Shown: one piece after another, positions 15,001 through 18,000 of the stretch
Layout: each line of letters opens with the position of its first letter
Numbering within the stretch: the first letter of the stretch is position 1
Assembly: GCF_001677475.2 (NCBI RefSeq)
Contig: NZ_CP012498.1
DNA: 64,000 nt
Source of the DNA: Escherichia coli
GTDB taxonomy: Bacteria > Pseudomonadota > Gammaproteobacteria > Enterobacterales > Enterobacteriaceae
Reading direction: 5' to 3' (one strand)
Position numbers: made by a program

Positions 15001-18000
15001 GGGTCGCTGACATTGAGAACGACAAGTTCAATCCTGTGTGTAATCACCAGCTTCATTGCTGCCGGACAAAATCAAATCTCAATCACTGAACTGGTTATCC
15101 TGTCCGGTATTAGTCGACAGAGGAGTCTGAAGTCCAATGGAACGAAAACGTACGTTAGTGAAGTAACTGTCTGATATATCAAAACATAATGGACATAGAA
15201 AACGCCATCAAAACGGTGTCTTTTTAATCGAAAATTGGCACTTAACGGACGACATTGTCTACTAATCGATTTTATCCTCTTACCGTACGTTTTCGTACGG
15301 TTGGCCCTCAAACCCCGATGAACGCTATGGTGAAGGGGGGCGCCGTATTAGCTTACTTGGACAGCATGTACTTTATGAAGTGAATGATGAGGCCAGTCGT
15401 GTCAATATCCTGGCGGTTGTAGGCCAGCGTCAGAATCCCCGATTCATTCTTTGAGTGTCCGGATTGGAACTCCATCTTCAGAGAATCGATCAACGTTCTT
15501 TAGCTCCTTCCACTAACAGCCGACCTATCTCAAACACCGCAGCTGACCGTCCCGACTTCACCGCTTCGGCTTTCTGTCCCTCAACAAACCAGTTATTACC
15601 GTCCGTTCGGACCAACTCAAACATCCATGACATATCGTAAACGTGTTCCGGGATCAGCGACCCTTCCCCGGCCAGAATACCCGCCGTTATGGAGTGGTTG
15701 CCCCCGTGCACAAAGCCAATACGCCAGGGCAACCACAGGTCAACATAGTGGTTGTTTTTATCTTGCCTCCACGGCTTCCCCTTATGGGTTCCAATGCGTG
15801 AAACGTTGTCGATATAGCGTGGTAGGCTCCAAGGCCACGGCAGCACTATGTCGCTTGCCAGCGACAACGGATAATCAGCGCCGTTCATCTCACACTCTTT
15901 CATCTTTTCGTAATATTGTATTTGGGTAAGTCCCTTAAAGAAGAACTCCTGCGGGGTCATATCCGGGCGGGCATCTGTTCCCTCCTCAGCTACCGCCAGC
16001 AAGAAATCACTCTGTACTGGCCGCACGATAGCGCGAATGAGATCTGGTAGCGCCTTAACGGGTAGTTTCTCTGCCACAGAAAGCAGATGATTGAAGCGTT
16101 TTTTTTCATTGGCTATAGTTGCTTTATCTTTCTTGTTTCGGTTCCAGAACATCACTGTCTGTAGCCCTCCTTATCGTGATCAGGATGATGGTTTTCATTC
16201 TAATGCTGTAGTAGTTTCACGTCACGCGCACGTGCATATTCTTCGAAAGCTTCGGCGTTAGCCGGTCAACCAGTTCCGCCTGGTAGGGGTCAGTTTGGAT
16301 ATGGGAAAATTTTGTACGTTAAGCGCATTATTTAACCGTAACGGATTGATTTTGTGTCAACGGCTATCGCTTTTAAATTATCGCCATTGCGGTATTGCAT
16401 TTAGGTTATCCGATTGAGTTCAACTCCCCTGAAAACAGCGTATAGCGGAGGAGTACACCCTATCGCGATAGGTAAGCCTGTTCAAAAAAACAGGCTTACC
16501 GTACAATAATTCTCTATATCCAAACTGACCCCATATACTGTGTATATACGTGGTAAATTAGGCATAAGTAGAGCCACTTATTTTAGGATGCGCGAACAAA
16601 TGAAGTTAAAGAATTGGCTTATTCCACTTATTGTCTGGATGTTTATTTATATTGGTATAAGGCTCGTATTTGATGGTGGGTGTAATGATGGGTGGAGCTC
16701 ATCATCAATTGGTCGGATGGGGGCTTGCTCACATCATGGTGGTGTCAACCATACATCCGGCTTTATAGCATTTATTTTTGCCACCATTGTGTCAGGTTGG
16801 TTACTTTTTAAAATGAATGAGGTTGAGTCAAGGAAAATAAGAAAATCCTATATCGTTGAATCAAGTTTTTTCGAAATGGAATATATTAGCTCTCCATTTA
16901 ACCCATCTGATTCTTTAAAAATTAATTCCAGTGAAATTAATTTTACTCATAGGAGCGGGTGGGATGGTATGCCTGATGAATCCATTAGAGTTGAATCATC
17001 GTATGATTTTTAAAAGATATAATTCTCCTTTCAGAGAAAATAAAAAGTGATATTGAGATGTTTAGCAGAGAAAACTCCGGTTTTGGGTGTGATGGCGAAA
17101 TAGTTTGTATTAGGTTTTTTGACGGTACTAAAGAGGTAAAATTTCAGACTCCGATGATATTTATTAATTTTGAAAATATATCAGACTCAACCCTCAAGCT
17201 GATGACTACCCTTAGGCGAAAACTGAAATTCGACTTCTAGGGAGCCGCTTGGAATTCGGAAAATAAACCACGTTAAGACTAGGTTTTAGCCAAAGGATTT
17301 TTAGGAATCGCCAGAATGGCGGGACAACAGCGGTTTTGGTGTCCGAAATCGTACGTTTATGGTGCAGTAAGTGAGAATTTATTCGTACCAGCTATGGATA
17401 CGTTACGGGCAGTGATTTTTCGCGCCAGACAGCTATTTCTTTGCTGTCCGGTTAACGGCGGTCTTACGTACAGGTTGCCGAACGCAAAATTTGTGCATTC
17501 CGGAAATTTCGGCGGTTGCGGCTTGGAACCCCTTTTATTGTTACAGGAGGCCTGGGCTTGTCTGCTACCGGTCCGGACGGGAGGGACACCGGGAATTTGA
17601 ATCCGGTTAACTGAGCCGGACATACGGTAAATAAGGAATGCAGGCAGAACGGGAAGCACTGTAGGATGAGACAGTAGTCTGGAAGTACATCAAAATTGCA
17701 ACAATAGTACGCTATTGCGTGACATAGATTCGTGACGTATAGTTACTGCATCTTATTTGTATATAACCACCATCAGGTACAAAATTATGTCTCCCGCACA
17801 AGCTAAACAAAAGCAGCATGAACGCTACGAAGCCGTAGCGGTGCAGGTTTTGCGTGGTCGTGCCGGTTACAAGCCTGCCGTAAAAAGCCGTTTCAGTAAG
17901 TCAGCCAATAGCAAATTCTCCCATACTATCGCTTTTGCCTGATCATGAACTTTGAGGCACAATAAACCATCATTCGCTGATGGTTTTTTTATGCCAGTTC

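What the first reader, a model, noticed from the sequence alone, without database searches (positions are those of the whole stretch)
16540..17240. Membrane protein with Cys/His-rich loop between TIME-2 and the solo inverted repeat
The ORF encodes two hydrophobic segments separated by GGCNDGWSSSSIGRMGACSHHGGVNHTSG and sits between Tn3-type repeats that point away from it. It could be cargo of a decayed Tn3-family element or a small metal-binding membrane protein.
Basis: inference. Interest (0 to 1): 0.3.

Follow-up and report, generated by a model that had tools for sequence, protein, structure and literature searches.

The report
Broken small-plasmid membrane protein gene
The interval holds one gene, not two: a frameshift-inactivated copy of an uncharacterised two-helix membrane protein that normally sits between the replication gene and the origin of tiny ColE2-type plasmids. 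Here it is a decaying fragment in a large F-like plasmid, so the local feature is ordinary, although the protein family has not been studied.

Summary
ORF 16540-17013 encodes two hydrophobic helices around GGCNDGWSSSSIGRMGACSHHGGV and lies between outward-facing Tn3-type repeats.

The interval is one 213-codon gene starting at ATG 16600. It is split by a 1-base deletion (T5 at 17007-17011; T6 in intact homologues), and ORF 17058-17240 is its C-terminus. Codons 16555-16599 are the tail of a ColE2-type rep gene.

The whole piece (~16556-17239) is 88.5% identical to 3.9-kb Proteus plasmids. More distant copies (about 69% DNA identity) lie on 2.5-4.3-kb Klebsiella/E. coli plasmids. In all of these the gene overlaps rep (ATGA) and precedes the origin motif.

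The frameshift is real: an independent assembly and 63 contigs share it. Selection is purifying on small plasmids (dN/dS 0.13-0.23) and relaxed in F-like plasmids. Most large-plasmid alleles are truncated, frameshifted or C28Y.

The N-terminal module (helix, invariant C-x-DGW-x-S-x-SIG-x-x-GACSHHGGV, helix) shares the DUF3761 core motif and occurs in at least 592 protein clusters. It is often fused to Zn-ribbon or WYL domains. Function is unknown. Tn3 cargo is not supported, and metal binding is untested.

The parts
16286..16532 (.). TIME-2, a 247-bp Tn3-derived miniature element. Its right outer end (…CCCC 16532) abuts the captured fragment.
   Evidence: Inverted repeat I1 has 48-nt arms and matches the IR pattern. 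It is absent from L002, whose homology to the window starts exactly at 16533. The flanking 5-mers TGGTA and ATATA differ, so there is no simple target duplication.
16555..16599 (+). Remnant of the last 15 codons of a ColE2-type rep gene (LGISRATYFRMREQ). An extra A at 16598-16600 puts it in frame with the downstream gene.
   Evidence: tblastn of the L003 Rep gives 80% identity over residues 280-294. Alignments show AACAAATG in the window against AACAATG in L002 and L003. In small plasmids the rep stop overlaps the start codon as ATGA.
16600..17013 (+). 5' part of the gene, 137 codons. It covers TM1 (nt 16615-16671), the extracytoplasmic loop with the C-x-DGW…GACSHHGGV motif (16681-16746), TM2 (16759-16809) and the first half of the cytoplasmic domain. 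It ends at a premature TAA.
   Evidence: The product is identical to P0160, which is found on 63 contigs.
17007..17011 (+). Frameshift site: a run of 5 T where intact homologues have 6 T.
   Evidence: Alignment with L002 and L003. The same T5 is present in an independent assembly, L031. Only 4 indels occur in 4.15 kb against L002.
17013..17240 (+). 3' part of the gene in the +1 shifted frame (KDIILLSEKIK…KLKFDF*). The ORF listing reports it as ORF 17058-17240. The stop TAG takes its G from the adjacent repeat.
   Evidence: The reconstructed 213-aa protein is 95% identical to P0001.
17240..17277 (+). Solo Tn21/Tn1721-like 38-bp inverted repeat with its outer end at 17240 and its interior to the right. 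It cuts off the last codon of the gene and the ColE2-type origin that follows the gene in small plasmids.
   Evidence: IR pattern match. Homology to small plasmids stops at 17239. No origin motif is present in the window.

Best explanation
What it is (shown).
- A pseudogenised relic of an accessory gene of ColE2-type small plasmids.
- About 690 bp (the rep tail plus the gene, without the origin) became part of an F-like conjugative plasmid. Its ends coincide with outward-facing Tn3-type repeats.
- In this lineage a 1-base deletion splits the gene, and the locus is drifting.

What the intact protein is (shown in silico).
- It has 213-215 aa, with the N-terminus in the cytoplasm.
- TM1 is followed by a roughly 28-residue extracytoplasmic loop carrying the invariant motif C-x-D-G-W-x-S-x-S-I-G-x-x-G-A-C-S-H-H-G-G-V, then TM2.
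- A roughly 130-residue cytoplasmic alpha/beta domain follows (four strands, helix, two strands, helix).
- On its native plasmids it overlaps the rep stop codon (ATGA) and lies between rep and the origin.

How it most likely works (inference).
- The hairpin is a membrane anchor.
- The outer loop is probably a disulfide-stapled knuckle (C28-C43) presenting His46.
- In relatives the same anchor holds small nucleic-acid or ligand-binding domains (Top1-type Zn ribbon, WYL, GRF) against the inner face of the membrane.
- My preferred reading, at roughly 0.3 probability, is a stand-alone cargo function that helps the host or the plasmid. It would recognise or exclude DNA arriving at the membrane (phage or foreign DNA), rather than act as a replication factor.
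- In the window itself the gene is non-functional.
For: One gene, frameshifted.
- Alignment to L002 and L003 shows the single missing base.
- The reconstructed protein aligns end to end with 7 homologues.

The mutation is real.
- The same T5 is present in L031, together with further indels.
- The exact 137-aa product occurs on 63 contigs.
- The assembly is otherwise clean.

Small-plasmid origin.
- Window 16556-17239 is 88.5% identical to L003 and L007.
- A rep remnant precedes the gene.
- The gene sits on plasmids of 2476, 3056, 3.9-kb and 4305 bp. The 2476-bp plasmid carries only rep and this gene.
- The motif TGAGAC-N12-ATCAGATAACAGC lies 8-19 bp after the gene in 11 of 11 small plasmids and is absent from the window.

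Decay in large plasmids.
- Window against L002: 10 nonsynonymous to 2 synonymous changes, compared with dN/dS 0.13-0.23 among small plasmids.
- Large-plasmid alleles: IR-truncated 96 aa (267 contigs), frameshifted (63), split (13 and 7), full-length but with invariant C28 changed to Y (39). Only about 17 contigs keep the motif.

Topology and module.
-.

Partner domains.
- Among 120 hairpin proteins: Zn_ribbon_Top1 in 27, WYL in 9, GRF in 3.

Not needed for replication.
- ColE2-like Rep is found in 3151 plasmid records, but the gene in only about a dozen.
- Sister replicons with Rep 87% identical carry other cargo in the same rep-ori slot. ETEC p58 has an annotated anti-phage dCTP deaminase there.
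- The Pantoea chromosomal homologue P0018 has no rep nearby and sits in a variable spot next to a prophage.
Against: - No experiment or publication bears on the function. DUF3761 appears in one held paper, only in passing.
- P0001 has no PADLOC or NCBIfam hit, and only a non-significant PHROG match (E 0.02) to a family of unknown function.
- The ATGA overlap with rep would fit a replication-linked role.
- The extremely conserved outer loop has no counterpart in known membrane defence effectors.
- AlphaFold is unsure of the loop (pLDDT 56-60).
- The relaxed-selection signal between the window and L002 rests on only 12 substitutions.
- The identity of the origin motif rests on my recollection of the ColE2-P9 ori sequence, plus the statement in PMC6856555 that the 32-bp ori lies downstream of rep. 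I could not check it against a held paper.
Confidence: 0.7

Rival explanations
1. The intact protein is a replication or maintenance accessory. It would be a membrane tether for Rep or the origin of this ColE2 sub-lineage, co-made with Rep in fixed ratio.
For: - The start codon overlaps the rep stop in every small plasmid, and the gene lies between rep and the origin motif.
- A 2476-bp plasmid keeps only rep and this gene.
- Relatives carry DNA-binding domains on the same anchor.
Against: - Reps 86-89% identical replicate plasmids that lack the gene and hold unrelated cargo in the slot.
- Pantoea carries a chromosomal homologue without rep.
- The C-domain has no detectable DNA-binding fold.
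Confidence: 0.2
2. The protein is a periplasmic metal-binding or redox/envelope sensor. In this reading C28, C43 and H46 (perhaps with D30 or H45) bind Zn or Cu and signal to the cytoplasmic domain.
For: - C28, C43 and H46 are invariant and D30 is nearly invariant.
- Many invariant Gly residues suggest a knuckle.
- The low AlphaFold confidence in the loop could reflect a missing cofactor.
Against: - The loop lies in the oxidising periplasm and has exactly two Cys in 108 of 110 members, which fits a disulfide.
- H45 is not conserved.
- No similarity to any known metal-binding family was found.
Confidence: 0.15
3. The gene is cargo of a decayed Tn3-family transposon.
For: - Tn3-type repeats lie directly at both ends.
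- Another allele is cut by a third such repeat.
Against: - Both repeats have their outer ends towards the gene, so the gene is outside them.
- The two repeats are of different types.
- The DNA between them carries a rep tail and is collinear with small plasmids.
- TIME-2 is absent in L002.
- There is no 5-bp target duplication.
Confidence: 0.05
4. The locus is still functional. Either the 137-aa product (hairpin plus half a domain) and/or the 60-aa ORF act on their own, or -1 ribosomal slippage on U-UUU-UAA restores the full protein.
For: - The allele is common, on 63 contigs.
- tRNA-Phe could re-pair one base back on the T run, which would give exactly the ancestral sequence DFLKD (reading).
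Against: - Intact homologues need no slippage.
- L031 has accumulated two more indels in the same gene.
- The native rep promoter and coupling are lost, and promoter-like sites are not above chance.
- The nonsynonymous excess points to relaxed selection.
Confidence: 0.08
5. The frameshift is a homopolymer sequencing error and the gene is intact in the real plasmid.
For: The change is a 1-base difference in a T run.
Against: - An independent Logan assembly has the same T5.
- The identical 137-aa product is deposited from many isolates.
- Only 4 indels occur in 4.15 kb against L002, and the long tra ORFs are intact.
Confidence: 0.03

Closest known systems
Pfam DUF3761 (PF12587), a bacterial domain of unknown function with a conserved HGGV motif
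   Same: It shares the core C-x-DG…G-x-C-S-x-H-G-G-V. This aligns to profile positions 57-79 of 82. 50 of 120 hairpin relatives hit the model at E<0.001. The location is extracytoplasmic.
   Different: - Only the last 23 positions of the model match, at 14.2 bits against a cut-off of 29.
- The motif is held between two membrane helices instead of following a signal peptide.
- It adds W32, S34, S36, I37 and G38 as (near-)invariant residues.
- It is joined to cytoplasmic domains.
ColE2-P9-type replicons (Rep primase PF03090 + PriCT_1, with a 32-bp ori just downstream of rep; PMC6856555 and papers cited there)
   Same: The native carriers of the gene have this Rep and an ori-like TGAGAC-N12-ATCAGATAACAGC motif. 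The window keeps the last 15 rep codons.
   Different: In these plasmids a gene is wedged between rep and ori. The window holds neither a functional rep nor the ori, so it is not a replicon.
Tn3-derived inverted-repeat miniature elements (TIMEs) and Tn21-subgroup terminal repeats (my own knowledge of the family)
   Same: The repeats are 38-48 bp, start with GGGG and end in ACG(T/C)TAAG. One complete 247-bp element and one solo repeat are present.
   Different: The gene lies outside the elements. The repeats only define the junctions of the captured fragment.
Membrane-anchored sensor/effector proteins with N-terminal TM helices and a cytoplasmic ligand- or nucleic-acid-binding domain. Examples are TM effectors of CRISPR/CBASS signalling and ToxR/CadC-type regulators with periplasmic disulfides (my own knowledge; an analogy only).
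   Same: The general layout matches. Relatives carry WYL or Zn-ribbon domains, and WYL models in PADLOC are labelled CRISPR-associated signalling.
   Different: - No sequence or fold relationship was found.
- There are no partner genes.
- The invariant outer loop has no equivalent.

Membership tests
Pfam DUF3761 (PF12587) | Score at or above the Pfam gathering threshold | tested here: not met
   The window ORF scores 14.2 bits (E 0.062) against a cut-off of 29. P0001 has no hit at E<0.001. A precomputed Pfam column lists PF12587 for all 16 hits, and marks it 'weak' for P0018.
Pfam DUF3761 (PF12587) | Conserved C…DG…G-x-CS-x-HGGV core (the HGGV motif) | tested here: met
   C28, D30, G31, G41, C43, S44, H46, G47, G48 and V49 are present. 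They are invariant or nearly so in 120 relatives.
Pfam DUF3761 (PF12587) | Extracytoplasmic location of the motif | tested here: met
   This is in silico only. The positive-inside rule holds in 110 members, and secreted multi-repeat relatives such as P0141 exist.
Cargo of a Tn3-family transposon | Gene lies between terminal repeats whose interiors face it | tested here: not met
   The outer ends at 16532 and 17240 face the gene.
Cargo of a Tn3-family transposon | 5-bp target duplication flanking the element | tested here: not met
   The TIME-2 flanks are TGGTA and ATATA. The two repeats next to the gene are of different types.
ColE2-type replicon | Complete Rep (PF03090 + PriCT_1) and the ori motif downstream | tested here: not met
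   Only 15 rep codons remain. The ori motif has no match in the window with up to 3 mismatches. The locus derives from such a replicon but is not one.
Known anti-phage defence systems (PADLOC-DB 2.0) | Match to a defence protein model | tested here: not met
   There are no hits for P0001, P0002, P0012 or P0013. Only the WYL part of P0015 matches.
Metal-binding protein | A demonstrated or modelled metal site | not testable with these tools

The most novel reading that the evidence does not exclude
The helix / C-x-DGW-x-S-x-SIG-x-x-GACSHHGGV / helix hairpin defines an unrecognised, widespread class of proteins (at least 592 clusters at 50% identity). These would be inner-membrane-anchored nucleic-acid-sensing proteins that act alone to intercept or exclude DNA arriving at the membrane. 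A second part of the claim is that the rep-ori gap of ColE2-type mini-plasmids is a cargo slot for such host-protective genes.
Probability: 0.15. Interest if true: 0.6.

Novelty: new variant of a known kind. Interest (0 to 1): 0.28.

Why it matters
Locally it matters little. The window copy is a dead passenger, and its GenBank label for the identical 157-aa ORF (ANO92477.1, 'flagellar motor switch protein G') is wrong.

The wider points are modest but usable.

1. A 2.5-kb plasmid that carries only rep and this gene is a minimal system for finding out what a conserved, unstudied membrane module does.
2. The fusion pattern (Top1-type Zn ribbon, WYL, GRF) gives a testable idea: nucleic-acid recognition at the membrane.
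3. The rep-ori gap of ColE2-type plasmids holds interchangeable cargo, including an annotated anti-phage gene. This could guide searches for new accessory functions on very small plasmids.
4. The locus is a clear example of Tn3-type repeats marking the junctions of a captured plasmid fragment.

Tried and rejected
- **Family libraries.** Pfam, NCBIfam, PADLOC and PHROGs were searched with the intact protein. The only results were the sub-threshold DUF3761 match and a non-significant PHROG match (E 0.02) to a family of unknown function.
- **Solved structures.** A profile search found nothing (best E 1.2).
- **First structure prediction.** AlphaFold with 8 sequences was unusable (pLDDT 47).
- **C-domain as a diverged WYL domain.** Rejected: hhalign probability 1%.
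- **Rep remnant next to the Pantoea homologue.** None found.
- **Phage genomes.** Only a 22-residue motif match in a Streptomyces phage.
- **Contexts of distant relatives.** These are stand-alone genes near toxin-antitoxin pairs, a transposase and a prophage, with no conserved partner. This is suggestive but not decisive.
- **Literature.** Searches for the motif, the Pfam/InterPro accessions and the ColE2 ori sequence found nothing relevant, and two key ColE2 papers are not held.
- **Promoter scan.** Promoter-like sites are not above chance.
- **Programmed frameshifting.** Considered and judged unlikely (see rivals).
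Full report
**1. The observation**

The window has a 157-aa ORF at 16540-17013 (+) and a 60-aa ORF at 17058-17240 (+) in another frame. 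The first contains the quoted peptide GGCNDGWSSSSIGRMGACSHHGGVNHTSG.

Hydropathy windows above 1.6 occur only at residues 6-26 and 52-72, counted from Met 16600. Lys/Arg cluster before the first segment and after the second.

The flanking repeats are real:
- TIME-2 is 16286-16532, with 48-nt arms.
- A Tn21-like 38-bp repeat lies at 17240-17277. The Tn3-type pattern occurs three times in the window against zero expected; the third copy is at 9406-9443 on the minus strand.
- Both neighbours have their GGGG outer ends towards the ORF.

G+C falls to 32-37% across the gene.

**2. One gene, broken**

A protein search found full-length relatives of 213-215 aa that cover the query completely. P0001 from E. 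coli is 96% identical and P0002 from Proteus is 83% identical.

DNA alignment with their loci shows two differences:
- The window has T5 at 17007-17011 where both intact loci have T6.
- The window has one extra A just before the ATG at 16600.

Restoring the T gives a 213-aa protein that aligns end to end with seven homologues. ORF 17058-17240 is therefore the C-terminus of the same gene.

The 20 codons upstream of Met 16600 are not part of it. Codons 16555-16599 are 80% identical to the last 15 residues of the ColE2-type Rep of L003. In the small plasmids the rep stop overlaps the start codon as ATGA.

**3. The mutation is real**

- An independent assembly (L031, run DRR589066) has the same gene order (DUF6710 gene, TIME-2, this gene). 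It has the same T5 and the same extra A, plus two further indels in the gene.
- The exact 137-aa product (P0160) is recorded on 63 contigs.
- The exact 157-aa ORF (P0163) is recorded on 10 contigs, where GenBank calls it 'flagellar motor switch protein G'.
- Against L002, the window shows 90 substitutions but only four indels in 4.15 kb.
- The long tra ORFs are intact.

**4. Where it came from**

Homology to the 3.9-kb Proteus/Providencia plasmids covers only window 16556-17239, at 88.5%. It stops one base before the solo repeat, which supplies the G of the TAG stop and removes the last codon.

The gene occurs on circular plasmids of 2476, 3056, about 3.9-kb and 4305 bp in Klebsiella, E. coli, Proteus and Providencia. 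The 2476-bp plasmid pU23UNK2 has only rep and this gene.

In all eleven small-plasmid loci the motif TGAGAC-N12-ATCAGATAACAGC lies 8-19 bp after the stop codon. I recognise this as the ColE2-type origin from memory of the ColE2-P9 sequence. PMC6856555 states that the 32-bp ori lies downstream of rep. The window has no such motif.

L002, an E. coli F-like contig with an intact allele, joins window ~5039 (with about 30 unmatched bases between) to 16533, exactly at the outer end of TIME-2. In p2RM9088 the gene is cut after codon 85 by yet another Tn3-type repeat.

An insert flanked by the outer ends of terminal repeats is what Tn3-family cointegration followed by adjacent deletions would leave. 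This is my inference. The two repeats are of different types, so at least two events are needed.

**5. Selection**

- Among small-plasmid copies, dN/dS is 0.13-0.23.
- Between the two F-like copies (window and L002) there are 10 nonsynonymous and 2 synonymous changes, giving a ratio of 1.24 on small numbers.
- Alleles in large E. coli plasmids are mostly damaged:
  - IR-truncated, 96 aa: 267 contigs.
  - Frameshifted: 63 contigs.
  - Split into 70 + 142 aa: 13 and 7 contigs.
  - Full-length but with the otherwise invariant C28 replaced by Tyr and A42 by Thr: 39 contigs.
  - Full-length with the motif intact: about 17 contigs.
- The native rep promoter and coupling are gone, and promoter-like sites upstream are not above chance.

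**6. The protein family**

An exhaustive profile search found 592 cluster representatives at E≤0.001. Almost all match only profile positions ~5-72, the N-terminal hairpin. The full-length family is tiny: the plasmid cluster, plus P0018, a Pantoea chromosomal gene.

Properties of the hairpin module:
- Of the listed hits with the CS-x-HGG core, 121 have a hydrophobic segment on both sides.
- C28, G31, S34, G38, G41, C43, S44, H46, G47 and G48 are invariant in 120 sequences. D30, W32, S36, I37, A42 and V49 are at least 90% conserved.
- The loop has exactly two Cys in 108 of 110 members.
- K+R density is 0.23 and 0.28 on the flanks against 0.07 in the loop. The loop is therefore outside and both termini are inside.

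Pfam sees only the last 23 positions of DUF3761, at 14.2 bits against a threshold of 29.

Domains found elsewhere in the 120 hairpin proteins:

| Pfam domain | Members |
|---|---|
| Zn_ribbon_Top1 | 27 |
| WYL | 9 |
| GRF | 3 |
| PaaD zinc ribbon | 2 |
| PcrA/UvrD tudor | 1 |

**7. Structure**

- With 120 sequences, AlphaFold gives helices 3-24 and 52-84 at pLDDT above 90.
- The loop is uncertain (pLDDT 56-60).
- The C-domain is four strands, a helix (135-158), two strands and a helix (196-209), at pLDDT 65-78.
- The C-domain is not a WYL domain.

**8. Function**

Nothing is published. Evidence bearing on a replication role:
- Against: ColE2-type Rep is found in 3151 plasmid records, but the gene in only about a dozen.
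- Against: replicons with Rep 86-87% identical carry other cargo between rep and the ori-like motif. One is a 260-aa hypothetical protein in a 2723-bp plasmid. Another is an annotated anti-phage dCTP deaminase in ETEC p58.
- Against: the Pantoea homologue is chromosomal, has no rep nearby, and sits in a variable spot that holds a prophage in one genome.
- For: the ATGA coupling to rep.

Distant relatives are stand-alone genes near toxin-antitoxin pairs and a transposase.

I therefore prefer a stand-alone cargo function in which the hairpin anchors a cytoplasmic recognition domain at the membrane, possibly to deal with incoming DNA. I put this at about 0.3. A replication tether gets about 0.2 and a periplasmic metal or redox sensor about 0.15. 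None of these has been tested.

**9. Verdict**

- The 'Tn3 cargo' idea is not supported, and 'metal-binding' is open.
- The window copy is a frameshifted, drifting relic of a small-plasmid gene.
- The family is an architectural variant of DUF3761 with unknown function. It is of moderate interest as a lead and of low interest as a feature of this window.

Noticed in passing
window 15122-16532: A DUF6710 gene (15490-16155, minus strand, Pfam E 2e-48) sits between two different TIMEs: 15122-15316 and 16286-16532. The same DUF6710, TIME-2, gene order is present in L031.
   Followed up: partly
window 9406-9443 (-) and 17240-17277 (+): Two related Tn21-like terminal repeats face away from each other and bracket about 7.8 kb (9444-17239). 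Homology of p2RM9088 (L001) to the window starts exactly at 9444. The bracketed block looks like a mosaic insertion zone next to the IncF replication region.
   Followed up: partly
window 17347-17700: A non-coding segment right after the solo repeat is found, unannotated, in over 3000 enterobacterial plasmid records, mostly conjugative. It may be a leading-region single-strand promoter or ssi-type element. Folded as minus-strand DNA it gives only z = -1.9.
   Followed up: partly
window 21114-21190, 25725-25873, 29337-29413, 31485-31634 (all -): Rfam hits to group II intron domains, apparently two intron copies, lie in the region between the leading-region genes and the tra operon.
   Followed up: no
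window 36581-36690: The traJ 5' UTR and FinP antisense RNA, plus AS-traG at 57148-57233, confirm that the window is an F-like conjugative plasmid.
   Followed up: no
window 16540-17013 (protein P0163 = GenBank ANO92477.1): The identical 157-aa ORF is deposited as 'flagellar motor switch protein G (plasmid)', which is a misannotation. It is the rep tail fused to a truncated DUF3761-type membrane protein.
   Followed up: yes
L032 924-1815; L034 2476-4414: In ColE2-type plasmids with Rep about 87% identical, the gap between rep and the ori-like motif holds other cargo. L032 has a 260-aa protein with no family. ETEC p58 has an annotated anti-phage dCTP deaminase plus a 61-aa ORF. The rep-ori gap may be a general cargo slot.
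   Followed up: partly
proteins P0161 and P0164 (E. coli large plasmids): The commonest full-length alleles in large plasmids carry C28Y and A42T in the otherwise invariant loop motif. Even ORFs that look intact there are probably inactive.
   Followed up: partly
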